64,000 nucleotides of DNA from a virus (Duplodnaviria > Caudoviricetes): positions 128,001-192,000 of IMG/VR virus record IMGVR_UViG_3300027740_000003. The stretch is one strand, 5' to 3'. Every line of letters begins with the position of its first letter. Within the stretch, counting starts at the first letter, position 1. Of the stretch, positions 14,052 through 33,630 are shown piece after piece. The translations under genes and the position numbers were made by a program. The notes under the pieces are model-generated. The model was not told where the DNA came from. It worked only from the letters and a program-made list of their open reading frames with translations, and did no database searches.

Positions 14052-14151
14052 AATTTATTCCCCAACAATATAATATCCTATTAAGCACATATCATAAATT
14101 TTACAGAATTATCAATTGTTGCTATTGTCTTTCCTCCGACAATTATATTAA

Positions 14152-14463
14152 TTATTGGGGCCAAATGAAACTTAGCTGCTTTGGACATGTGTCTCTTTCC
14201 TCTTCTTTATCTACGACATCAACAATATTTTCTATCTCTCCAGAATATACTATAAATAATTCTACATCAGTTATTCCAGAAAGTTTATATGTTTGTCCTT
14301 CTAAAATCTTACAATCTTCACCTTCATATAAAACTATATTTCTACCACTTATTTCTATTAATAACGCTCCTTTAAAAACAATTATAATTTCATCACTTGT
14401 TTTGTTGTATCTGGGACCGATTATATCAAATTCTTTTATTTTCAATATATGCGAGTTAATCAC
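14152..14463 (-). CDS. hypothetical protein
   Basis: 103-aa ORF, overlaps upstream stop; ends QLSFIWPQ. Confidence 0.65.
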   Translation of the reverse strand: MINSHILKIKEFDIIGPRYNKTSDEIIIVFKGALLIEISGRNIVLYEGEDCKILEGQTYKLSGITDVELFIVYSGEIENIVDVVDKEEERDTCPKQLSFIWPQ

Positions 14464-14984: not shown

Positions 14985-15056
14985 AGCTAGAGGGAGAATC
15001 GAACTCACCAAACAACTGTTTTGCAGACAGTGCCATTTACCAATTTGGTATCTAGC
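14985..15056 (-). tRNA. tRNA-Cys(GCA)
   Basis: ACTGT-CTGCAAA-ACAGT anticodon arm, GTTCGATT T-loop, GCTAGA/TCTAGC acceptor; one T-stem mismatch, no CCA. Confidence 0.75.
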
Positions 15057-15148
15057 CTTAATTGATTTTGGTGCGCCATCCCGGTGATGCTCCGAGGTAC
15101 TCTGGTTGGAGGCCAAATATTCTACTGTTGAATTAATGGCGCATATTA

Positions 15149-16486
15149 TTACCATTGAATATCTATATCTCCAATGCTTCTATTTATATCATTTTTCAAT
15201 TTTGCTAAAACCTCTTCAGGAACAGCTTTCACATCAGCGGGATATATTATCTTGGCATTTTCGCCAGAATCAAAATCTTTTGAAAATTCTACTATTACTA
15301 CTATTTTATTGTTTCCGTTAAATCCAACATTTTCTACAAGTCTAGCATTAACGCTATTCCAATCTGAATTTGGATTTGTATTCCTGGCTAATATTTTTAA
15401 AGCTCTAGTAATTAAATCTTGATATTTTTTAAATTCAGCTTCTGATTCTGAAGAATTTGGTTTTGTGGGTTTTTGTAAATTTTTATTATTTTCTGAATAG
15501 GCCTCCCAAGCCCTATCATAATCATAATCTTCAACATAAGAAATTTTTCTTTTTATTGATGCTTTTGCTGTATTTTTTAATAGTTCCGTTAGTCTATTTT
15601 CTAAATCCGGATGAAGAGTATTACTTATTTTTGTTTTTATTTTAGATAAAGCGGTTTGTACAAAATACATTACGTCGGCAGAATTTTCCACAAAAAGGCT
15701 TCCGAAATAAGATAATGCTGCTTGGAATCCACTGCCGCCCGCAATACGCATTTCTAAATTAATTTCATCTTCATCTAGTATTAACGAATTGCGTTGGGCC
15801 TGAATTATTATGACAATAGGGTTTTCTCTTTTTTTATTTTTTGCATTGTTTGTTGAAATATAAGCTGTCATTAAATTTGGAGTTAGGTAAATTCCTTCTA
15901 AAGAGTTTCTAGAAGACATATTAAAATTTGATTCTTCGTCTATTTGCCAAGTTCTTTTTTTCGGATTAGCTAATAGTCCAGACGACATTATACTACTCAA
16001 ATTGCTTTTATGAGTTCCATGATATAAATATATTGGAGGTGTTTTTGCTAGTTTTTCAAACAAACACGCTAATTTCTCTACTTTATCTCTGTTTAATATA
16101 TTAATAGCCTTGGAAACATCTTCGTCTGTTATTCCTGTCTCATCATTAATATGAACTAAATTGTCAGGAAATAATAACAACAGGTCGTCTATTACTACAT
16201 AACTATCTACTTCTTTTCCTTCTAACCATTCTTCAATCTCACTTATCCTATTTCCTGTTATTCCAGTGTTGCCTATTATGTAAGAAGATAATGTTGGCAA
16301 TGATTTCCTAACAAGACCCATATCGAAACGCCAATTAGAGGAAATAACTATCTTGGCACCCGTAGCTGATACAATCTTTTCTATTCTTTTTATTTTCTCA
16401 GGATCTAAATAATTGTGTCCATACTTACCGAGTTCCTTGTAAGTATTTAATACACCATCTAGATCAAGGAAAATAACAGAAACCAT
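15149..16486 (-). CDS. HAD phosphatase (HAD_SAK_2-like) fused to ART-fold-like domain
   Basis: IFLDLDGVLN..IVISSNWR..YVVIDD; then YLYHGTH..NL.SI..SGL. Confidence 0.75.
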   Translation of the reverse strand: MVSVIFLDLDGVLNTYKELGKYGHNYLDPEKIKRIEKIVSATGAKIVISSNWRFDMGLVRKSLPTLSSYIIGNTGITGNRISEIEEWLEGKEVDSYVVIDDLLLLFPDNLVHINDETGITDEDVSKAINILNRDKVEKLACLFEKLAKTPPIYLYHGTHKSNLSSIMSSGLLANPKKRTWQIDEESNFNMSSRNSLEGIYLTPNLMTAYISTNNAKNKKRENPIVIIIQAQRNSLILDEDEINLEMRIAGGSGFQAALSYFGSLFVENSADVMYFVQTALSKIKTKISNTLHPDLENRLTELLKNTAKASIKRKISYVEDYDYDRAWEAYSENNKNLQKPTKPNSSESEAEFKKYQDLITRALKILARNTNPNSDWNSVNARLVENVGFNGNNKIVVIVEFSKDFDSGENAKIIYPADVKAVPEEVLAKLKNDINRSIGDIDIQW

Positions 16487-16503
16487 AACATAATGCGGTT
16501 ATA

Positions 16504-17160
16504 TTATCTCTTGCGCATTCTCCCGGCGGTTTTTTTAAATAGCTTTTGGAAAGGAGGCATCTCTTGCATAACCATTGGTTTATTAAAATCAGGGATTAGT
16601 CCTGTAGAAAGATACGCTTGAGTTTCATCAATAAAGAAATCATCAGAATATCCACACTTCTTTAGTTTTTTAGAAATGAAATTTCTTGTTTTTGTTGGCA
16701 ATGCGTTAACCAAAGCCGTTGTTTTGGTTTTATATTTCTCGTCAGTATAAAAGAATCCATGAGCAAGCTCGTGGTTAAATGTTCCAACCAAGTCCGCGTC
16801 TTCACCTGATGTTCCAATTATATAAAAATCGCTTCTATTATCTTCTTTTGAACAAATAAATTCTGCCAGGGAGAGCATAAGTTTATCATATCGATTTGGA
16901 TCTTGTATACCATCTTTGTGGAGGGAAAAGATATATTCGCCAGGAAGGTTGAAACCAGCCCAATCTTTAGTATATGTAAAGACACCTTCTCCCATTTCTC
17001 TTGCATACCAATCCATGTAATTCACTAAAGTTAGATTGGTCTTCCTGAATTTTGGAGACTCATAGAACTCCTGATATCTCAGGAAGTGCATTGTTAGATC
17101 GTAGTGGTGGTCAAAATGTAGATGCCAAATTTGCTTTCTGAGTTGCTTTAAACTAAACAT
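16504..17160 (-). CDS. conserved phage protein with HExxH metallopeptidase-like motif
   Basis: FLRYQEFYESP, WAGFNLP, HELAHG, DETQAY. Confidence 0.7.
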   Translation of the reverse strand: MFSLKQLRKQIWHLHFDHHYDLTMHFLRYQEFYESPKFRKTNLTLVNYMDWYAREMGEGVFTYTKDWAGFNLPGEYIFSLHKDGIQDPNRYDKLMLSLAEFICSKEDNRSDFYIIGTSGEDADLVGTFNHELAHGFFYTDEKYKTKTTALVNALPTKTRNFISKKLKKCGYSDDFFIDETQAYLSTGLIPDFNKPMVMQEMPPFQKLFKKTAGRMRKR

Positions 17161-17275
17161 TCACCCTCCAGCCGTATATATCTATGCTGGATTATAGTCT
17201 GGGCATTGAACTTTAATATAATAATAATAATAATAGAATTGTGGGGAATATGTGGTGTAAACTTTTGTTTACATA

Positions 17276-17458
17276 TTATTCATTTGCTGCTAATTTTATA
17301 TCTTCTTCGGAAGCTATTTTTATTATGAACGTTCCTGACAATTCCATTATTCTACTAGCACCAGCTCTAAGAATGGTTGCTAATTTATAATCGTATGAAT
17401 ATTCGTCTGCTAAGTCTGATATTTTTTCTGCTGCTTCTAGATAAAAGTTATTTCCCAT
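17276..17458 (-). CDS. small hypothetical protein (paralog of 17490-17669)
   Basis: YLEAAEKISDLADEY vs YREAADKVWELAKQY. Confidence 0.6.
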   Translation of the reverse strand: MGNNFYLEAAEKISDLADEYSYDYKLATILRAGASRIMELSGTFIIKIASEEDIKLAANE

Positions 17459-17489
17459 TATTACCACCCACAATAACTATATCAAAATA

Positions 17490-17669
17490 TTACTTATCAT
17501 CCTCTGTTTGTTTAGCTCTTGCCAAAGCATGGATTTGAGAGACAATATTTTTTAATTCCCCGGCAAGCTCAAACAAACCCTTGTCTTCGTATTGTTTGGC
17601 TAATTCCCAAACTTTATCGGCCGCTTCCCTATATGACTGGCCTTCTGTTTTTAATTCATTGTCTCCCAT
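17490..17669 (-). CDS. small hypothetical protein
   Basis: start moved to MGDNELK; track start is an artefact of the upstream FLVCA tag read in another frame. Confidence 0.6.
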   Translation of the reverse strand: MGDNELKTEGQSYREAADKVWELAKQYEDKGLFELAGELKNIVSQIHALARAKQTEDDK

Positions 17670-17683
17670 GCCTTTATAACAAA

Positions 17684-17806
17684 TTATGCACAAACAAGAA
17701 ACGTTTCATTTTCCATTATAGAATCTATAATAGAGGAAACAAGCAAATCTTCTTGTATTTGAATGTCTCTTAAGAAATTTAGATAACATTGTTGAGTTAT
17801 GCACAT
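17684..17806 (-). CDS. 40-aa mini-ORF E ending ETFLVCA (capsid-like fragment)
   Basis: hand-translated MCITQQCYLNFLRDIQIQEDLLVSSIIDSIMENETFLVCA*. Confidence 0.7.
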   Translation of the reverse strand: MCITQQCYLNFLRDIQIQEDLLVSSIIDSIMENETFLVCA

Positions 17807-17943
17807 ACTAAAAATAGCTCCTCATACCTATCAATTATGTTAAACCGTCGCATTTTAACATCTGATAGAGTTATAGGACACGTAGACCAATCAACAACCT
17901 TAAATGTAGGAACAACAACTCTATTTGCTTTTAAATAATTCAT
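17797..17943 (-). CDS. 48-aa mini-ORF D ending ELFLVCA (capsid-like fragment)
   Basis: hand-translated MNYLKANRVVVPTFKVVDWSTCPITLSDVKMRRFNIIDRYEELFLVCA*; ATGA overlap. Confidence 0.8.
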   Translation of the reverse strand: MNYLKANRVVVPTFKVVDWSTCPITLSDVKMRRFNIIDRYEELFLVCA

Positions 17944-18071
17944 GCACACACCAAAAATGTAGGACAATTAAGAGTTGTTCTTAATGGTTGAAGCATTGCT
18001 TTTGCTAATCTTTTTCTTCCTTCCAGAGTGTAAAGTAATTGGCTAATTAAAGGGTGGTTATTTATGCACAT
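17940..18071 (-). CDS. 43-aa mini-ORF C ending PTFLVCA (capsid-like fragment)
   Basis: hand-translated MCINNHPLISQLLYTLEGRKRLAKAMLQPLRTTLNCPTFLVCA*. Confidence 0.75.
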   Translation of the reverse strand: MCINNHPLISQLLYTLEGRKRLAKAMLQPLRTTLNCPTFLVCA

Positions 18072-18163
18072 ACAAGAAATGTCCTTTCTTTAAATAAATG
18101 AGTTATTTGCAGCGGTATGTATGGTAGTATTGGTATGCTTGGCGGGGGTGGCGGGGGTGGCAT
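18062..18163 (-). CDS. 33-aa poly-Pro mini-ORF B ending RTFLVCA
   Basis: hand-translated MPPPPPPPSIPILPYIPLQITHLFKERTFLVCA*; could start further upstream. Confidence 0.65.
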   Translation of the reverse strand: MPPPPPPPSIPILPYIPLQITHLFKERTFLVCA

Positions 18164-18194
18164 TGGTATTTTTAGTGTGCATAATATTAAACAA

Positions 18195-18329
18195 TCAAGC
18201 ACAGACGATGAAATTTGTTGACTCATATCCAAATACTTTTAAAATTACTTCTTGCCTAATCAGTCCTTGATTAACATACTTTGATATGTCAATATTATAA
18301 GCTTTTGCTAACAGGTTCCAATCTGGCAT
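18195..18329 (-). CDS. 44-aa mini-ORF A ending NFIVCA
   Basis: hand-translated MPDWNLLAKAYNIDISKYVNQGLIRQEVILKVFGYESTNFIVCA*; starts 2 nt after upstream stop. Confidence 0.7.
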   Translation of the reverse strand: MPDWNLLAKAYNIDISKYVNQGLIRQEVILKVFGYESTNFIVCA

Positions 18330-18331
18330 AA

Positions 18332-18583
18332 TTATCCCAGATCCTTTCTGTCCAACATAAACTTTTCCATATATTCCCTAATAAGTTCTTCTCTGTCTTT
18401 TGGAAGCTTTCCTCCCCAAACATTGCATAATTCTATTCCAAACATTTCTTCCACACTATCATAGTGTAATAATACCCAAGTCTTAGTAAATTCTTGGCAG
18501 ATCGCCAACCTTAATTCCATCATTAATTCCTTTGAAGAGTCAATTACTAATACTTCATCTCTCTCACCAAGCGGTAGAATCAT
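18332..18583 (-). CDS. hypothetical protein
   Basis: 83-aa ORF. Confidence 0.65.
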   Translation of the reverse strand: MILPLGERDEVLVIDSSKELMMELRLAICQEFTKTWVLLHYDSVEEMFGIELCNVWGGKLPKDREELIREYMEKFMLDRKDLG

Positions 18584-18641
18584 GTGTCCTCATGTGTCTA
18601 TGTAGGTTTACGTTATGCTCTCGGCAGATCTGTGTCCTATT

Positions 18642-18842
18642 TTAGTTTCTCCACAGATCCATTATTCCAGCTTTTTCTACCGACAGTATTCCAGGAACCT
18701 CTAAAAGCAATATGTATTCTTCATTTGATACTTCGGCTGTGAATTTTTCATCACTTGAAGTGATTATATTTATTCCAATTTCCTCCAAAGCATTTTTAAC
18801 ATCTTCAGATTTTCCCTCTTTACAGAATATGTTTATTTTCAC
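18642..18842 (-). CDS. small hypothetical protein (ferredoxin/I9-like pattern)
   Basis: 66-aa ORF, ATGA coupled. Confidence 0.6.
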   Translation of the reverse strand: MKINIFCKEGKSEDVKNALEEIGINIITSSDEKFTAEVSNEEYILLLEVPGILSVEKAGIMDLWRN

Positions 18843-19093
18843 AGCTTGTTCTCCGTTGTTGAACTCAGGCCTTCTATTACTAGAATTCTATTTTCTACCT
18901 CATCGATTAATTTTTTGTCTAAAGAATAATATCTCATTCCTTGGCCTGGAATCATTTTATAAAATCCCGCCATATCTATTCCATTAACCCTAAGTTTTGC
19001 TTTGAACATAGGATAGTCATCGGTTTTAATTTCTATTGAAAAATAGAGTATTAAAACAATAATTAATAGCAAAATTAACCATATATAAATCAT
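18839..19093 (-). CDS. small protein with N-terminal TM helix
   Basis: MIYIWLILLLIIVLILYFSI. Confidence 0.65.
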   Translation of the reverse strand: MIYIWLILLLIIVLILYFSIEIKTDDYPMFKAKLRVNGIDMAGFYKMIPGQGMRYYSLDKKLIDEVENRILVIEGLSSTTENKL

Positions 19094-19275
19094 AATATAA
19101 CCTTTGTAATTTCATTGTTATTAATTTCAACATTAATCATTTCTGGATTAAGAGCTCCAAAGTTAATGCCATTTGATATAGCAACCCGAAACTTCAATCC
19201 GTGATCTCTAACAATTTTGGCTCCTTCTTTGATATTGAGCCCAATAATTTCTTCTGCAATGTGTTCGTAATTCAT
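19090..19275 (-). CDS. small hypothetical protein
   Basis: AAGGAG RBS; IIGL....A......G...RV...RINVE-like pattern. Confidence 0.65.
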   Translation of the reverse strand: MNYEHIAEEIIGLNIKEGAKIVRDHGLKFRVAISNGINFGALNPEMINVEINNNEITKVIL

Positions 19276-19296
19276 TTTCTCTCCTTAAAAACATCA

Positions 19297-19319
19297 ATGG
19301 CCAGCTTCTGGCTGGCCAT
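19297..19319 (-). terminator. intergenic 9-bp hairpin, possible terminator
   Basis: ATGGCCAGC-TTCTG-GCTGGCCAT perfect inverted repeat. Confidence 0.45.
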
Positions 19320-19343
19320 TTGGAATAATTAGATTAACTTCTT

Positions 19344-19772
19344 TTATTCCCGAATAGCCTTCCAAACCAACTCTTCGTTTACATTATATTTTTGTGCCAA
19401 ATCTTTAACTTTATTTCTAAGCAATAATAGTTGTTTTTCTTGTCCGTTTAAAAAATCATTATAACCGTCTGAAAGCACCACCTCTTTTGGTGCAAACTGT
19501 GTTTTTATATTAGATTTGATAATATCGTAATCGTATCCTTTTATTTCATCGTAATTCAAAGCAGTACGCATTATTTTAATATTACATGTAAAAGACCTGT
19601 TAAAATAAAATTCAAAATATAATTTCTTTAATGTCGCAAGCTCTTTTTTGGACAATTTCGTTATTTTTATTAAATCAACAAACTCAACTAATTTAAAAAG
19701 TTTATCAATTGATTCATTCGTCATATTAATTGTTTCTTTTTTACCATCTCTGTCTATCGTTATTTTTGCCAT
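19344..19772 (-). CDS. hypothetical protein
   Basis: 142-aa ORF. Confidence 0.65.
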   Translation of the reverse strand: MAKITIDRDGKKETINMTNESIDKLFKLVEFVDLIKITKLSKKELATLKKLYFEFYFNRSFTCNIKIMRTALNYDEIKGYDYDIIKSNIKTQFAPKEVVLSDGYNDFLNGQEKQLLLLRNKVKDLAQKYNVNEELVWKAIRE

Positions 19773-19780
19773 TGCTCACC

Positions 19781-20104
19781 TTATTCAATCAGATCTTTTA
19801 TTATCTTTTCGTCTTCTGAAAGTGGTACAAATTCTTCTATGGAAGTTTTTTCATACATTCCACATCTTTTGCATGGAATTAGATTTAAACAATATTTGTA
19901 TTTGTCATAATCGTATGATATACAATTGTATGTCAATGACGGGGGGCATTCTTGTTCTATTGTTATTGAATCTGATTTTACATAATATCCCTGGTCAGAA
20001 TTGTTTTTAATTTTAATATGACCAAATATTCTGCATAATAAACGATCCCACCATGTAGGCTCCCTAATTATTATTTTTCCTTTGGAAACTATTTTTACAG
20101 GCAT
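19781..20104 (-). CDS. Zn-finger-like protein with IKDLIE tag
   Basis: LCRIFGH..CKRCG; ends LSEDEKIIKDLIE. Confidence 0.8.
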   Translation of the reverse strand: MPVKIVSKGKIIIREPTWWDRLLCRIFGHIKIKNNSDQGYYVKSDSITIEQECPPSLTYNCISYDYDKYKYCLNLIPCKRCGMYEKTSIEEFVPLSEDEKIIKDLIE

Positions 20105-20592
20105 GTTGGATCAATTCTATGTATTTTATACTCGGGCCTAACTTTCTGTTGCTTCTGAGCATATCTTATTGTTCCATAAGTTCCACCTTTTTCAATACCA
20201 TTCCATACAGCTAATAAACAATCAGAATTATCTATAATCCACCTATCACGAGTATGCATCTTTTCTGGTGCATATGAACCAGGCGATACTATAACTACCT
20301 TTTCTGCAAGGCTTAATAAATGTTTAAATATGCGCTTGGTATCATCTGGCCACATCGAATCCTGACCTTCAAATGGTACTGCTGCTATAAAAGGTATATT
20401 TAGTTCTATTGCTGCCCAACAGGAAATTGTGTCAGTCCCCAGCGCCATTCCAGATATAATCTTTTCCGGAGATAATTCGTGGAACTTGTCTACGATTGCT
20501 TTGTAAACTTTATCATATACAGGATTGGGAATTTCATATCCACATCCAAGTCCGGGGGGCCGATGACCAGAGATGCCAACAATATTACTCAT
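20095..20592 (-). CDS. SLOG superfamily protein (YspA/DUF1273-like)
   Basis: ISGHRP, ISGMALGTD, AAVPF..Q...W, RDRWIIDNS..LLAVWNG..GGT..TI.YA. Confidence 0.9.
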   Translation of the reverse strand: MSNIVGISGHRPPGLGCGYEIPNPVYDKVYKAIVDKFHELSPEKIISGMALGTDTISCWAAIELNIPFIAAVPFEGQDSMWPDDTKRIFKHLLSLAEKVVIVSPGSYAPEKMHTRDRWIIDNSDCLLAVWNGIEKGGTYGTIRYAQKQQKVRPEYKIHRIDPTCL

Positions 20593-20687
20593 TTATTTCC
20601 TATCTGGGTGCGTATGGTACAAAATGATTCCCAACAACACTCCTGCTGTTAACATTATTATTACAAAAAAATGATGTTGGCATTTTG

Positions 20688-20760
20688 TGGCTCTGAGTGT
20701 AGTCGAAACACTGATCGGGTTTTTAGAGAACCCTGCTTTAGACCGCTAAGCTACAGAGCC
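20688..20760 (-). tRNA. tRNA with CUA anticodon (amber suppressor)
   Basis: GGCTCTG/CAGAGCC-A acceptor, GCTT/AAGC D-arm, GGGTT-CTCTAAA-AACCC anticodon arm, AGTGT-TTCGACT-ACACT T-arm; all stems perfect. Confidence 0.9.
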
Positions 20761-20763
20761 ATT

Positions 20764-20786
20764 TGATCACCATTTTATGGTGATCA
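20764..20786. repeat. 10-bp perfect inverted repeat between PTH2-like gene and CUA tRNA
   Basis: TGATCACCAT-TTT-ATGGTGATCA. Confidence 0.7.
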
Positions 20787-20791
20787 TTTGT

Positions 20792-21124
20792 TCACTTGCT
20801 CATTGCTAATGGTAATTTCCTTAACAATCTCTTTGCAGCGTCTCCTGGTTCAAAAGCCACTGCTGTTATCTGATTGTTTAAATCTGGCTCCCTAAACACA
20901 GAATATCTTATTTCTTTGCTTGCCGCAATATCTGTGAAATAAGATAACTGTGATTCATTTTCACATTCTAGGACAGCTAGATAATCAGAGTCTAAATGCC
21001 ACTCTTCTGTTATTTCCGTATGTTCTTTTGCAAATAGAAGAGCAGCATGAATCCCTTGAGCTAACATTGCTCCTGGTTTTATGTCTTTACGTATTACTAC
21101 ATAAAGTTTAGTTCCCTAAATCAT
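20792..21124 (-). CDS. peptidyl-tRNA hydrolase 2 (PTH2)-like protein with in-frame TAG at codon 3
   Basis: ATG ATT TAG GGA ACT AAA CTT TAT GTA GTA ATA CGT AAA GAC = MI*GTKLYVVIRKD, then AQGIHAAL, FREPDLNNQITAVAF, KLPL. Confidence 0.75.
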
Positions 21125-26025: not shown

Positions 26026-26161
26026 GAATCCCTCTAAGCACATACTAGAAAATACTCTTTTAGAGGATAATCAAAATAAAATATATTTCCAATGGAAATT
26101 GGAAACATTGGTTGAATTATAAGATCCGATATTTTAAACATAGTATTTAAAGTTATTTGTT

Positions 26162-26413
26162 TCATTCGATTATGTCTTTTATCACTAATTCATCACACGA
26201 TAGCTCGTTTCCTACCAATGTCCACGTCCACTTATCTCTTTTTGATATAAAAAGATTATATTCTAAATCATTTGTGTCGCAAATTATACCACATTTTTTA
26301 CATGTATATATTGTTGACGGACATTCTATATTTTCTTCCAAACTATTATAACAGAAAACAAAACTATGATCTGAATCATTTGGCGGTTCAAACAATGGTG
26401 ATTCAGCATTCAT
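26162..26413 (-). CDS. H-CxxC-C zinc-finger protein with IKDIIE tag
   Basis: DHSF..YTCKKCG..LSCDELVIKDIIE. Confidence 0.85.
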   Translation of the reverse strand: MNAESPLFEPPNDSDHSFVFCYNSLEENIECPSTIYTCKKCGIICDTNDLEYNLFISKRDKWTWTLVGNELSCDELVIKDIIE

Positions 26414-26634
26414 TCAATTATATCCTTTATCATCATTTCGTCGCATGACAAATAGTTTTTCGGAAAACAACCCAAACCATCAATTGTAATTTGTATTTTA
26501 CATTTTGAACATTCATATGAGGAGCCCGAAAATAATATAAGCCCATCCACATAATCATGATTTTTAATCAAAACTAAATCATGTCCTTTTTTATCATAGC
26601 TAAATTTTAAAATAGGCTCTTTAATTTTGTTCAT
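26410..26634 (-). CDS. H-CxxC-C zinc-finger protein with IKDIIE tag
   Basis: GHDL..YECSKC..LSCDEMMIKDIIE; start at TAATG overlap. Confidence 0.85.
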   Translation of the reverse strand: MNKIKEPILKFSYDKKGHDLVLIKNHDYVDGLILFSGSSYECSKCKIQITIDGLGCFPKNYLSCDEMMIKDIIE

Positions 26635-26918
26635 TATTCTATTATATCTTTTATCATCATTTCTAAACAAGATAATCCATATGTGTTCCCATTATGACCA
26701 TAATAACTATGACACAAAAACACATCATCAAAACCTTCAACCTCTTCCTCTATCATTAGAATAACTCCACATTTTTTACATTTATAAAATGATTGTTTGT
26801 CGTCTGGCCCACAAAGAAAAGAAATACTCCAATTAATATCTACGAACTCACAATTATTTGAAATGAAAATAAATTCATGATCTGTTTTAATAGGTGGATC
26901 AAAATTAGGCTTATCCAT
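26634..26918 (-). CDS. H-CxxC-C zinc-finger protein with IKDIIE tag
   Basis: DHEF..YKCKKCG..LSCLEMMIKDIIE. Confidence 0.85.
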   Translation of the reverse strand: MDKPNFDPPIKTDHEFIFISNNCEFVDINWSISFLCGPDDKQSFYKCKKCGVILMIEEEVEGFDDVFLCHSYYGHNGNTYGLSCLEMMIKDIIE

Positions 26919-26920
26919 AT

Positions 26921-27157
26921 CTACTCTATTATGTCTTTTATTATTACTTCGGCACAACTCAAAATTTCATTTTTATAAATTCTCCCCCTAGAACAAAACT
27001 TGGGATAAAAATGAAAACTATCTCTTTTAAAATCAATTCTAATTTTTGAAACACATTTCGCACATTCGTACCAAACTACATTGTTGGTAAATCTGCCAAG
27101 CTCAACAAGTACATGATCTTGTGCAATATTGTTGGGAACAATATATTTTTTAATCAT
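26921..27157 (-). CDS. H-CxxC-C zinc-finger protein with IKDIIE tag (TAG stop)
   Basis: DHVL..YECAKC..LSCAEVIIKDIIE. Confidence 0.85.
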   Translation of the reverse strand: MIKKYIVPNNIAQDHVLVELGRFTNNVVWYECAKCVSKIRIDFKRDSFHFYPKFCSRGRIYKNEILSCAEVIIKDIIE

Positions 27158-27720: not shown

Positions 27721-27889
27721 GATTTAATGCAAGAATATTATGCGCAAACAATAAAATATTCCTCCTCCAAAATATGTCTTCTAGCAATTCCTTGATAAGG
27801 AAGAGATGGTTTAACTTTAGTCTTTGGTTTTTTACCAGAAATATCTATGTCTCTAGGATAATCTATTATTAGAAATGGTTTTTTCACAG

Positions 27890-29778: not shown

Positions 29779-29796
29779 AATGTTCCTTAGGCACAC

Positions 29797-29825
29797 ACTA
29801 TAAACACTTCCGGCCCCTTTGTCAA
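29797..29825 (-). promoter_or_regulatory. sigma70-like promoter TTGACA-17-TATAGT
   Basis: near-consensus; reads into the tRNA cluster. Confidence 0.75.
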
Positions 29826-29932
29826 CCTCCGAGGTCCGTTATATCCACATTTTATACATTTATATTGTTTTATATATTTAATGAATTCAGAACAATGTTG
29901 GCAGAACATACTTATATGCAATATTAATCATC

Positions 29933-30933: not shown

Positions 30934-32307
30934 TTACTCTACACAACAGGCGTACTCACCTGTCTCCGTACACAAACATCCATTGAAATAATGCGGATGC
31001 ATCTCAATACAAGAATCAATTTCAAAACTATTCACAATTACAGTTCCATTCACTTGCCCACTACCATTACTTCCAAATGATGCCAGTGGTGCTAATATCG
31101 ATCCTTGAACTGCTGTACCACTTACCGATATCACTTCAGCTTCATAAAAATTCCAGATTAACTGATTGCAAAAGTCATCCAATGATACTGCCCCAGATCC
31201 ACAAGAAACTCCATCCGGCAATATAGTTGTTCCATTTACAAATCCAGCCTCTGTTCCCGAAACGTTTATTATAACCGTAGATGCTACAGGAACATTAATT
31301 GTAAATCCATTTGAGGATAACATATCTGAACCACTTATGGAGAATACATTCATTTCCGTATCAGTACCTGTAAACACCGTTGGAGAACCTACGTCTGTGG
31401 TTCCATTTGTTTCATATTCTGCTAGTCTGGTACTGTATGCAATTAATGTTTCCTCTAATGACTCGAAATCTACTGGCGAAGGAAGATCTCCCCAAACTCC
31501 TCCACATTGAGAAGTTCCATTAAGCACATTTCCTCCAACCCAGATTTTTCCTTTTATTCCTCCATTAGCATCTAGATCCCCTCCAACAACAAGAACGTAA
31601 TTTTCTGTATCACATTGAGATAGTTGAGCACCTACGCCGTATCCACTTAATGTAGCATTGCCACCAACCCACATTCTTCCTTCTGTATCACATCCGCTTG
31701 CATTTGCGTTTTCGAAAATTAGAAGGTTAACCGCTTCTTCACCAAAACCTAGAATGTCTGGGGTACAAGTGGTAATGCATAAGTCAGTGGTTCCGCCAGT
31801 TCCTAGATCAACAGAGCCTCCGGTTCCCAGGTCTACTGTGCCACCAGTACCAAGGTCAACCGTACCTCCCGTTCCAAGATCAATGGTTCCGCCTGTTCCT
31901 AAATCTATTGTATTTCCTTCCCCTCCTGTTCCTAGATCGATAGTACCACCTGTTCCAATATCATAAGTTGCTCCAGTGGAAGGGGCTTCCCCAGCTGTTC
32001 CTCCATAAGAGAATACAGAACCGGCCATTCCTGGTTCCAGGATGCCCGCAGAGCCTGCTTCGTTCTCAGGACCACCCGCAGCTCCTGGATCAGTTCCTGC
32101 TGTCTCAGAGCCACCTGAACCAATTATAATATCTCCTCCTGTTTCATTAGGAGCAGAGCCGGTAGCAATTCCACCGCCACCGGTAGTAATAGCAGATGTA
32201 GAGCCAGCAATTCCATCTGGACTTGTACCGACATTTATACTATTTGGTGTAGAACAAGACAGTAGAATTGTTGCAATTATAGATGTTAGGAACTTATTTG
32301 TTTTCAT
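30934..32307 (-). CDS. lipoprotein with Gly/Thr linker and choice-of-anchor A domain
   Basis: lipobox LLSC, (LGTGGT[IV]D)n repeats, DTEGRMWVGGNATL, LIWNFYEA, GSILAP.A, GQVNG. Confidence 0.8.
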   Translation of the reverse strand: MKTNKFLTSIIATILLSCSTPNSINVGTSPDGIAGSTSAITTGGGGIATGSAPNETGGDIIIGSGGSETAGTDPGAAGGPENEAGSAGILEPGMAGSVFSYGGTAGEAPSTGATYDIGTGGTIDLGTGGEGNTIDLGTGGTIDLGTGGTVDLGTGGTVDLGTGGSVDLGTGGTTDLCITTCTPDILGFGEEAVNLLIFENANASGCDTEGRMWVGGNATLSGYGVGAQLSQCDTENYVLVVGGDLDANGGIKGKIWVGGNVLNGTSQCGGVWGDLPSPVDFESLEETLIAYSTRLAEYETNGTTDVGSPTVFTGTDTEMNVFSISGSDMLSSNGFTINVPVASTVIINVSGTEAGFVNGTTILPDGVSCGSGAVSLDDFCNQLIWNFYEAEVISVSGTAVQGSILAPLASFGSNGSGQVNGTVIVNSFEIDSCIEMHPHYFNGCLCTETGEYACCVE

Positions 32308-33237: not shown

Positions 33238-33630
33238 TTATGCACACAATATAAACCTTATAGGTTCTTTAACAATTTCCCAACTAAATATACATTTTAA
33301 ACTTTTATAGTCGTATTCTGTTTTATATGGGACAACAACCGCACCAATAAGAGAACCATATTGGTTTACATATTTACATTTTAAATTATTCATGGCATTA
33401 GTGATTTTGTTAAATTTTCTTTCTCTAATTTCACCTGGTGTCAAAGAAACTGTTTCGATTATTCTTTCCATATTATTCCTAAGAGGCCTGGGAGAGATTT
33501 GAACTCTCGACCCGGAACTTATCTTTGGATCTTCCAGACTTGAACTGGAAAGAGACGTGTATCTAGATCCCACAGGTTCCCGCTCTTCCTCTGAGCTACC
33601 AGGCCTTGTATTAAAAAAAATATCACTCAA
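33238..33630 (-). CDS. hypothetical protein ending RFILCA (FLVCA-type tag)
   Basis: 130-aa ORF; C-terminus TTT ATA TTG TGT GCA TAA. Confidence 0.7.
   Translation of the reverse strand: MSDIFFNTRPGSSEEEREPVGSRYTSLSSSSLEDPKISSGSRVQISPRPLRNNMERIIETVSLTPGEIRERKFNKITNAMNNLKCKYVNQYGSLIGAVVVPYKTEYDYKSLKCIFSWEIVKEPIRFILCA

What the first reader, a model, noticed from the sequence alone, without database searches (positions are those of the whole stretch)
17684..18071. Three FLVCA mini-proteins look like consecutive fragments of a major capsid protein
Seen: ORF C has ISQLLYTLEGRKRLAKAMLQPLR; ORF D has RVVVPTF..P.TLSDVKMRRFNIIDR; ORF E has RDIQIQEDLLVSSIIDSI. From memory of large-phage HK97-fold capsid proteins, these match, in the same order, the motifs I...L.T..GR..LA..M.QPLR, RV..P.FEI...P.I....K.RRF..IDR and ..IQA.ED..VF..LD; that family also has TFLV shortly after QPLR. 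Established: several defence systems sense major capsid protein (CapRel-SJ46, Lit/Gol peptide). Inference: an MCP paralog dissected into individually translated, tagged epitopes that act as decoys for capsid sensors, or as dominant-negative inhibitors of competitor capsid assembly.
Basis: partly seen in the sequence, partly recalled or inferred. Interest (0 to 1): 0.82.

Follow-up and report, generated by a model that had tools for sequence, protein, structure and literature searches.

The report
Tagged capsid-fragment mini-genes in a megaphage
A 435-kb soil phage related to Bacillus phage G carries a fast-changing row of tiny genes, several of which copy short conserved blocks of its own major capsid protein and all of which end in the same five-residue hydrophobic tail; related phages keep this design, so it is selected, but its purpose is unknown.

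Summary
The observation largely holds. The window is part of a 435,004-bp phage genome. Its major capsid protein (MCP, outside the window) is 51% identical to phage G gp27.

- **ORF D** matches MCP residues 126-157 significantly.
- **ORF C** matches residues 51-80. It is significant on its own and borderline genome-wide.
- **ORF E** is only suggestive, but its best match (162-184) lies exactly where collinearity predicts.
- **A fourth tagged ORF (27738-27887)** carries two motifs of MCP 81-111, the gap between C and D, that occur nowhere else in the genome.

The F[LIM][VIL]CA-stop tail is conserved at the peptide level. There are 11 copies; every second codon position is invariant, third positions vary freely, and all three stop codons are used.

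Syntenic arrays exist in at least four related metagenomic phages, each with its own tail (YLLCA, RIICY, [IV][IVL][IL]CA, WISII). They hold further MCP blocks in shuffled order and in duplicate. D has orthologues with dN/dS of 0.27-0.47. The array is a hypervariable island between conserved genes. The cultured phage Tunturi 5 independently encodes the same MCP block in a 97-aa protein.

This is not a decaying pseudogene. The decoy and dominant-negative readings remain untested. Earlier notes of this scan describe analogous tagged fragment arrays in other giant phages.

The parts
18332..18583 (-). Conserved 83-aa gene directly upstream of the array; probable first gene of the same transcription unit
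   Evidence: An ORF with a GAGGA ribosome-binding site. Orthologues stand directly before the arrays in L002 (8486-8737) and L004 (4255-4506). Contigs of a relative in run X3 cover it at about 83% identity.
18195..18329 (-). Mini-ORF A (44 aa), tail FIVCA
   Evidence: Orthologues in L002, L004 and L021. Likeness to MCP 209-229 is weak (p 0.04-0.09).
18062..18232 (-). Mini-ORF B (proline-rich), tail FLVCA
   Evidence: A B-like ending is found in L021. No MCP likeness. A close strain shows a 9-nt length difference here.
17940..18071 (-). Mini-ORF C (43 aa): MCP block 51-80, tail FLVCA. Its ATG lies inside the tail of B.
   Evidence: Profile single-test p 1.3e-5; E 0.24 among 17,906 segments. C-type members in L004 score E 1e-8 and 2e-7.
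17797..17943 (-). Mini-ORF D (48 aa): MCP block 126-157, tail FLVCA. Its ATG overlaps the TGA of C (ATGA).
   Evidence: tblastn: 45% identity over 33 aa (E 6e-5 with D as query; 0.005 with the MCP as query). Profile E 8e-5. Phage G gp27 is the best hit in GenBank phages. Orthologues P0245 and P0246. dN/dS 0.27-0.47. A gene caller called it as a 48-aa protein, P0122.
17684..17806 (-). Mini-ORF E (40 aa): possible MCP block 162-184, tail FLVCA. Its ATG lies inside the tail of D.
   Evidence: Suggestive only: p 0.02 and p 0.026, but at the collinear position.
17490..17669 (-). Untagged helical 59-aa gene F that closes the array; conserved in all relatives
17276..17458 (-). Untagged helical 60-aa gene G downstream of F; conserved flank
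27738..27887 (-). Isolated mini-ORF (49 aa), tail FIVCA, carrying two MCP motifs of residues 81-92 and 103-111 in swapped order
   Evidence: The patterns YQGIARR and Y.RDID each occur only in the MCP and in this ORF among 632,078 six-frame residues. Profile p 1e-3.
26034..26165 (-). Isolated mini-ORF, tail FLVCA (TAG stop)
29787..29921 (-). Isolated Cys-rich mini-ORF, tail FIVCA. The next ORF starts at the GTG inside the tail.
33238..33630 (-). 130-aa ORF, tail FILCA, next to tRNA-Asp
14081..14188 (-). Isolated mini-ORF, tail FMICA
   Evidence: A tagged counterpart sits at the matching place in L004 (9094-9384, tail IICA).

Best explanation
C, D, probably E, and the separate ORF 27738-27887 are short copies of the most conserved sequence blocks of this phage's own HK97-fold major capsid protein.

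**Shown**
- Each block is encoded as its own 40-50-residue protein that ends in a lineage-specific hydrophobic tail (here F-[LIM]-[VIL]-C-A).
- The pieces belong to a syntenic array of overlapping minigenes that several related megaphages keep. The array evolves much faster than its flanks.

**Inferred: expression**
- Overlapping stop and start codons couple translation of one minigene to the next.
- The neighbourhood looks like an early or accessory region (tRNAs, RNA-repair genes).

**Inferred: mechanism**
- The peptides are far too short to fold as capsid protein. I think they act as mimics that compete for whatever normally binds those MCP blocks.
- The more likely partner is a host immune sensor that recognises the capsid protein. 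The less likely one is capsid protein itself during assembly, either the phage's own or a rival phage's.
- The shared tail would serve as a common handle (address, degradation or pairing signal) read by a partner that co-varies with the lineage.

**Odds**
- MCP-derived, selected, tagged minigenes: about 0.85.
- Mimic or competitor mechanism: about 0.45.
- Host-sensor antagonist specifically: about 0.25.
For: **MCP derivation**
- Of 37 tagged mini-ORFs from six relatives' loci, 7 hit the MCP (E 6e-8 to 2e-4). No other large protein of the genome was hit convincingly.

**The tail is selected as a peptide**
- In 11 copies all five second codon positions are invariant, all five third positions vary, and TAA, TGA and TAG are all used.
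- In L002 and L004 the last array member and the isolated genes keep the peptide with different codons and without the embedded ATG.
- The shared DNA at the junctions is only about 20-33 nt long at 64-81% identity, so the copies are not recent duplicates.

**The tail is uniform within a genome and differs between genomes**.

**Purifying selection on D**.

**Hypervariable island**
- Flanking proteins are 85-88% identical to L002, while array members are about 50% identical or replaced.
- In run X3 an abundant relative covers 16400-17707 and 18337-19305, but nothing reaches 80% identity across most of the array.

**Independent case**
- Tunturi 5 gp172 carries MCP 128-161 (E 2e-6), 78% identical to that phage's own MCP, and ends a few residues after the RRRF motif, as the D-type does.

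**Context**
- Several defence proteins sense MCPs, for example Avs7 and Dsr1 (PMC13581612).
Against: - No binding partner, expression data or phenotype is available, and no RNA run holds the region.
- E, A and B have no significant MCP likeness, and most tagged ORFs have no identifiable parent.
- The fragments are only 32-45% identical to today's MCP. They are old and diverged, which fits poorly with a decoy that must track a current epitope.
- A fragment that binds a sensor could trigger it as easily as block it.
- The Tunturi 5 protein has a twin-arginine-like N-terminus. That suggests export or membrane anchoring, which does not fit a cytoplasmic decoy.
- Phage G, LR745208, Rctr197k and Rhodococcus phage E3 show no extra MCP fragments.
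Confidence: 0.45

Rival explanations
1. The peptides are head-assembly accessories. They work on the phage's own capsid, for example by capping or pacing MCP polymerisation or by being packed into the head, with the tail as an address to the procapsid.
For: The blocks copied are among the most conserved of the MCP (invariant columns). They include the arginine cluster at the end of block 126-157. Analogous address-tag readings appear in earlier notes of this scan.
Against: The array lies about 150 kb from the head module, among tRNA and RNA-repair genes. It turns over quickly between phages whose MCPs are 80-93% identical, which is unexpected for a part of a conserved assembly pathway. No head-module ORF ends in a similar tail. 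Phage G has no such fragments.
Confidence: 0.15
2. The tail is the working part: a released hydrophobic signal peptide, a degradation signal or a modification site. The bodies are carriers that happen to descend from capsid sequence.
For: The tail is the only feature common to all members. It is lineage-specific, like the pherotypes of Phr, arbitrium and SHP peptides, which are cut from the C-termini of small precursors (established knowledge). Many bodies show no MCP likeness. The phage encodes ClpP and a tmRNA.
Against: The D-type bodies keep the MCP block under purifying selection across three genomes. The MCP is the only recurrent parent. There are no signal peptides, no modifying enzymes in the neighbourhood (Pfam lists), and no ClpX, PDZ or S41 protease in the genome. 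The tmRNA tag (ending AAAA) is unlike the tail.
Confidence: 0.15
3. The array is debris of a decaying MCP paralogue, and the tail is a scar of some repeated insertion.
For: In this window C, D and E are collinear and each lies in frame -1 relative to the one before, as serial frameshifts would look. The genome holds other partial MCP-like paralogues.
Against: Every break lies exactly at a tail that is conserved as a peptide. D orthologues survive as 48-53-aa ORFs in other genomes with dN/dS 0.27-0.47. Relatives carry other MCP blocks in other orders. The same tail sits on isolated genes 8-15 kb away.
Confidence: 0.07
4. The pieces are joined during translation by -1 frameshifting or hopping at each junction, giving one rearranged capsid-like protein.
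For: All junctions shift to frame -1, and the -1 frame is open for 5-8 codons before each ATG.
Against: There is no slippery heptamer at the junctions. The order of blocks differs between relatives, so no constant product would result. Terminal and isolated members keep the tail without a following ORF.
Confidence: 0.03

Closest known systems
HK97-fold major capsid protein of the phage G gp27 type (PHROG 2522; PDB 6wkk)
   Same: C, D and ORF 27738 share sequence blocks with it, including the family's invariant residues.
   Different: Each mini-protein holds only 20-35 residues of a fold of about 290 residues, plus a foreign tail. It cannot be a capsid subunit.
Gol region of T4 gp23 and the Lit exclusion system; MCP sensing by CapRel-SJ46, Avs7 and Dsr1
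   Same: These show that a short stretch or the conserved fold of an MCP is what host immunity reads (Gol/Lit and CapRel from established knowledge; Avs7/Dsr1 from PMC13581612).
   Different: There the signal is part of the real capsid protein. No phage is known to encode such stretches as separate tagged genes, and no sensor is known for this phage's host.
Eukaryotic microProteins (Id proteins, LITTLE ZIPPER) and engineered dominant-negative fragments
   Same: Small proteins that descend from an interaction block of a larger protein.
   Different: Those bind the parent family in a shown way. Here binding is untested, the pieces come as an array of many different blocks, and they carry a common tail.
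Address tags of phage head proteins (T4 capsid targeting sequence; scaffold C-terminus mimicry by SaPI CpmB)
   Same: A short shared peptide on otherwise unrelated small phage proteins.
   Different: The T4 tag is N-terminal and is cleaved off. Here the tail is C-terminal, hydrophobic and differs between close relatives, and no head protein of this genome ends alike.
Phr, arbitrium (AimP) and SHP-type signalling peptides
   Same: The lineage-specific last 5-8 residues of a small precursor of about 40 aa.
   Different: Those precursors are single genes with export signals and a cognate receptor next door. Here there are 6-11 copies per genome, no signal peptide and no receptor candidate.

Membership tests
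HK97-fold MCP, phage G gp27 type | Significant similarity to the family profile | tested here: met
   D: E 8e-5. C: single-test p 1.3e-5 (E 0.24 over 17,906 segments). E alone is not significant.
HK97-fold MCP, phage G gp27 type | Complete fold of about 280-340 residues (N-arm, E-loop, P and A domains) | tested here: not met
   The ORFs are 40-48 aa and cover MCP 51-80, 126-157 and 162-184 only.
Decaying pseudogene of an MCP paralogue | Relaxed selection and loss of the reading frames in relatives | tested here: not met
   D orthologues are intact in L002 and L005. dN/dS is 0.27-0.47, with dS about 1.0-1.3, which is near saturation. Conserved residues show synonymous codon differences.
Decaying pseudogene of an MCP paralogue | Breaks at arbitrary places | tested here: not met
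   Every break coincides with the tail that is conserved as a peptide.
Anti-defence decoy or antagonist of an MCP sensor | Binds or silences a host sensor of the capsid protein | not testable with these tools
   The host and its defences are unknown (soil metagenome).
Anti-defence decoy or antagonist of an MCP sensor | Fast-evolving accessory locus outside the structural module | tested here: met
   The array is a hypervariable island between conserved genes. Its neighbours are tRNAs, a HAD_SAK_2 RNA-repair protein, PTH2 and YpsA.
microProtein-type dominant-negative fragment | Derived from a block of a larger protein | tested here: met
microProtein-type dominant-negative fragment | Binds the parent protein or its partner | not testable with these tools
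   The one complex prediction gave no verdict (see Tried and rejected).
RiPP precursor array | Modifying enzyme genes in the neighbourhood | tested here: not met
   The precomputed Pfam lists show no YcaO, LanM, radical-SAM or peptidase families within about 10 kb in L002 and L004.
RiPP precursor array | Conserved leader with a variable core | tested here: not met
   The conserved part is the last five residues. The N-termini are shared only as far as they overlap the preceding tail.
Scaffold-mimicking or capsid-targeting tag | Tag equals the end of a head or scaffold protein of the same phage | tested here: not met
   No ORF of 100 aa or more between genome 285 and 313 kb (the head module) ends alike. 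The whole-genome scan finds the tail only on the mini-ORFs and on one 130-aa ORF (33238-33630).

The most novel reading that the evidence does not exclude
Giant phages keep a heritable, rapidly reshuffled library of peptide mimics cut from the least mutable blocks of their own capsid protein. Each mimic carries a lineage-specific C-terminal handle. The library blunts host pattern-recognition immunity that reads the capsid protein, or sabotages the capsids of rival phages. This would be a new class of counter-defence or inter-phage weapon built from structural-gene fragments.
Probability: 0.3. Interest if true: 0.92.

Novelty: categorically new. Interest (0 to 1): 0.78.

Why it matters
Capsid proteins are among the main signals that bacterial immunity reads, and phages cannot easily change them. 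A phage-encoded set of capsid-block peptides would be a new way around that constraint, or a new kind of weapon between phages.

It would also give a natural map of which capsid segments matter in such contacts. Even without a known function, arrays of translationally coupled, tail-tagged minigenes derived from one structural gene are not described in the papers I could search.

Tunturi 5 and its Tunturiibacter host (PMC11924767) offer a cultured system in which the same capsid block can be tested.

Tried and rejected
- **Complex prediction, MCP 46-337 with D:** no verdict. It counts neither for nor against binding.
- **AlphaFold2 model of the MCP from 23 close homologues:** mean pLDDT 36, unusable. 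The assignment of blocks to fold elements therefore rests on the usual order of the HK97 fold (inference).
- **IMG/VR scans with D and with the 218-aa flanking protein:** no relatives.
- **megablast of 15000-21000 against GenBank phages:** no match.
- **Word-index protein search with D:** found only D itself.
- **Exhaustive representative search with D:** two of the five hits (P0243, P0244) are unrelated repeat proteins.
- **Pfam on the mini-ORFs:** nothing.
- **Promoter and terminator scan:** counts not above the shuffles.
- **RNA evidence:** the runs that hold the region are all DNA.
- **Extra MCP fragments in phage G, LR745208, Rctr197k and Rhodococcus phage E3:** none.
- **Other parent proteins for the remaining tagged ORFs:** none convincing.
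- **Profile-profile tests of the E-type and A-type against the MCP:** weak (p 0.026 and 0.094).
- **Possible readers of a C-terminal tail in the genome:** no S41 peptidase, PDZ domain or ClpX; ClpP only.
- **The tmRNA tag:** unlike the tail.
- **Frameshift-fusion reading:** rejected for lack of a slippery site and because block order differs between relatives.
- **Literature search for the tail peptides and for capsid decoys:** nothing relevant.

Full report
**What is in the sequence**

On the minus strand between 18329 and 17684 lie five short ORFs, A to E, that overlap head to tail. Each ends in F-[LI]-V-C-A followed by a stop.
- The ATG of C and of E lies inside the tail of the preceding ORF (GTATGTGCATAA, 10-nt overlap).
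- The ATG of D overlaps the TGA of C (ATGA).
- Each ORF is therefore in frame -1 relative to the one before.

A degenerate DNA pattern for the tail finds 10 sites in the window, all on the coding strand, against 0.19 expected. A six-frame scan finds the same ten, plus only two other segments ending in CA. The whole 435,004-bp genome has 11.

Among the 11 copies all five second codon positions are invariant, all five third positions vary, and first positions change only among Leu, Ile, Met and Val codons. TAA, TGA and TAG all occur. That is the signature of selection on a peptide, not on a DNA site. The DNA shared at the junctions is only about 20-33 nt long at 64-81% identity.

**The genome and its capsid protein**

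The window is bases 128001-192000 of a single 435-kb phage contig from a soil metagenome. Its MCP lies at genome 298573-299583, outside the window. It matches:
- PHROG 2522 'major head protein' at E 3e-76;
- the solved phage G gp27 capsid protein, PDB 6wkk, at E 2e-92;
- phage G by tblastn at 51% identity.

At least 1,764 metagenomic homologues exist, many on contigs of 300-500 kb.

**Are C, D and E capsid pieces?**

tblastn of the peptides against the genome places D on MCP 129-159 (45% identity, E 6e-5) and C on MCP 55-82 (32%), on the same strand and in the same order.

A profile of 121 MCPs searched against all 17,906 six-frame segments of the genome and two relatives gives:
- D: E 8e-5.
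- C: E 0.24, tenth in the list, where the next unrelated segment scores E 3. As a single test p = 1.3e-5.
- E: nothing at that depth. As a single test p = 0.02, aligned to MCP 165-183.

A profile of three E-type sequences again aligns to MCP 162-184 at p 0.026. So E is suggestive only, but it maps where collinearity predicts.

In 50,697 GenBank phages the best hit of D is the phage G MCP (E 3e-3).

The gap between C and D (MCP about 83-128) is partly filled elsewhere. The isolated FIVCA-tailed ORF 27738-27887 carries YQGIARR and Y.RDID. Each of these occurs only there and in the MCP among 632,078 six-frame residues. In this ORF they stand in swapped order.

**Relatives**

The 218-aa protein just downstream has homologues whose contigs are syntenic.

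| Locus | Flank identity | Tail | Members and MCP blocks |
|---|---|---|---|
| L002 | 88% | LE[TV]YLLCA | An A-type, a D-type (profile E 5e-5) and further members; no B or C |
| L004 | 69% | KKRIICY, or KKIICA on the last member and on an isolated gene | Nine members overlapping by 10 nt; MCP 285-329 (1e-7), 125-150 (4e-4), 48-90 (2e-7), 35-82 (1e-8), in that non-collinear order |
| L021 | 67% | [IVLT][IVL][IVL]CA | Eleven or more members; one carries MCP 2-33 (6e-5) |
| L005 | fetched through the D homologue P0246 | LWISII (no Cys) | At least three D-like members |
| L019 | 60% | YY[LI]ICG | Bodies not MCP-like |

Of 37 tagged mini-ORFs from these loci, seven hit the window genome's MCP (E 6e-8 to 2e-4), and no other large protein is hit convincingly.

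In the arrays the tail codons also supply the ribosome-binding site and the ATG of the next ORF. Examples are AGGA five bases before the ATG in L004 and GGAG in the LE codons of L002. Last and isolated members keep the peptide with other codons and without an ATG. This again points to selection on the peptide.

**Selection and turnover**

D-type orthologues (window, L002, L005) share R-[VI]-x-[VI]-P and RRF-[NS]-IIDRY. These conserved residues use different Arg and Ile codons. Nei-Gojobori dN/dS is 0.27, 0.29 and 0.47, with dS about 1.0-1.3, which is near saturation.

The flanks are 85-88% identical between the window and L002, while array members are about 50% identical, missing or replaced. 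In a groundwater run an abundant relative covers 16400-17707 and 18337-19305 at about 83% identity. Most of the array between them has nothing at 80% or more, apart from low-depth contigs of a closer strain over A and B. The array is thus a hypervariable island with sharp borders.

**An independent case**

A weak tblastn hit led to gp172 of the cultured jumbo phage Tunturi 5 (PP885688; PMC11924767). This 97-aa protein has a twin-arginine-like N-terminus. It ends in MCP block 128-161 (profile E 2e-6). That block is 78% identical to Tunturi 5's own MCP, against 33.6% identity between the two phages' MCPs. It stops a few residues after RRRF, as the D-type does. The same capsid block has therefore been copied into a small accessory protein at least twice, or is kept close to the resident MCP.

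**What it is not**

- *Assembly artefact:* no. Several independent assemblies show such arrays, and one contig of run X1 spans the region.
- *Plain pseudogene:* no. Breaks fall only at the tail, orthologous mini-ORFs persist, dN/dS is below 1, and the order is shuffled in relatives.
- *RiPP cluster:* no evidence. There are no modifying enzymes nearby and no shared leader.
- *Mimic of a head-protein end or of the tmRNA tag:* no.
- *Joined by frameshifting:* no support, since the junctions have no slippery site.

**Mechanism**

Shown:
- the MCP derivation of D, C and ORF 27738;
- the selected tail;
- the overlapping stop-start architecture;
- synteny and fast turnover;
- purifying selection on D.

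Inferred:
- that the ORFs are translated, and early;
- that the MCP blocks work by mimicry;
- that the tail is read by a lineage-specific partner.

I favour mimic peptides that compete for a binder of conserved capsid blocks. A host sensor is the somewhat more likely target than capsid assembly, for two reasons. First, the locus behaves like an arms-race accessory island far from the head genes. Second, MCP sensing by defence proteins is established (PMC13581612; Lit/Gol and CapRel from established knowledge).

Against this stand the age and divergence of the fragments and the export-like N-terminus of the Tunturi protein.

**Relation to earlier notes of this scan**

Notes on this genome describe the same array and a second, far more common tail, IKDIIE. 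Follow-up notes on other giant phages describe tagged mini-proteins that carry fragments of capsid and other core proteins.
- Those notes prompted my search for other parent proteins, which found none here.
- They also prompted my check of head-protein ends.
- They are AI notes and are not used as evidence.

Noticed in passing
window 26162-27157 (four consecutive ORFs) and many others: A second, much commoner C-terminal tail, IKDIIE-stop, sits on Cys-rich small proteins. It is also frequent in L002 and L004 (11 ORFs each ending in IIE), and L006 has 18 ORFs ending in IIK.
   Followed up: partly
window 20687-20760 (-): A tRNA with anticodon CUA (amber suppressor type; ARAGORN calls it tRNA-Pyl). 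One of the FLVCA tails (26034) and several tails in L002 and L004 end in TAG.
   Followed up: no
genome 97812-98149 (-) and 410693-411244 (-), outside the window: The phage encodes a tmRNA (tag peptide ANDNADLTAAAA) and a ClpP homologue (E 6e-54), but no ClpX, PDZ domain or S41 protease.
   Followed up: partly
genome 221669-223579, 219942-220397 and 392949-393323 (all -), outside the window: Further partial MCP-like paralogues. A 636-aa protein resembles MCP 125-283 in its C-terminal part (E 1e-4 by tblastn). Its 151-aa neighbour ends in IIKDIIQ and has a weak MCP 260-279 likeness. A 124-aa protein resembles MCP 11-99.
   Followed up: partly
L008 2306-2599 (Tunturiibacter phage Tunturi 5 gp172, PP885688.1 122430-122723): A 97-aa protein with an RRQFF twin-arginine-like N-terminus that ends in a recent copy of its own MCP block 128-161. 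It lies beside a DnaB-like helicase gene. The phage and its host are in culture.
   Followed up: partly
L019 569-1336: An array of four Tyr/Asn/Cys-rich mini-ORFs with the tail YY[LI]ICG or YFICG. It lies about 4 kb upstream of the usual place, and the bodies are not MCP-like.
   Followed up: no
window 17276-17669 (-): Two helical genes of about 60 aa (F and G) follow the array directly. F-like and G-like genes are found in every relative examined, including those without an array at that spot (L007, L019).
   Followed up: no
window 18057-18368: Low-depth contigs of a closer strain (runs X2 and X3) differ from the window by a 9-nt length change in the region of the proline-rich ORF B.
   Followed up: no
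window 30934-32307 (-): A 457-aa protein with a signal-like N-terminus and repeats of the DLGTGGT type sits among the tRNA genes in a stretch of higher G+C (0.386).
   Followed up: no
L004 14673-15875: An IS605 OrfB/TnpB-type gene (Cas12f-like TNB domain) lies in the relative's syntenic region. It was not seen at the matching place of the window.
   Followed up: no
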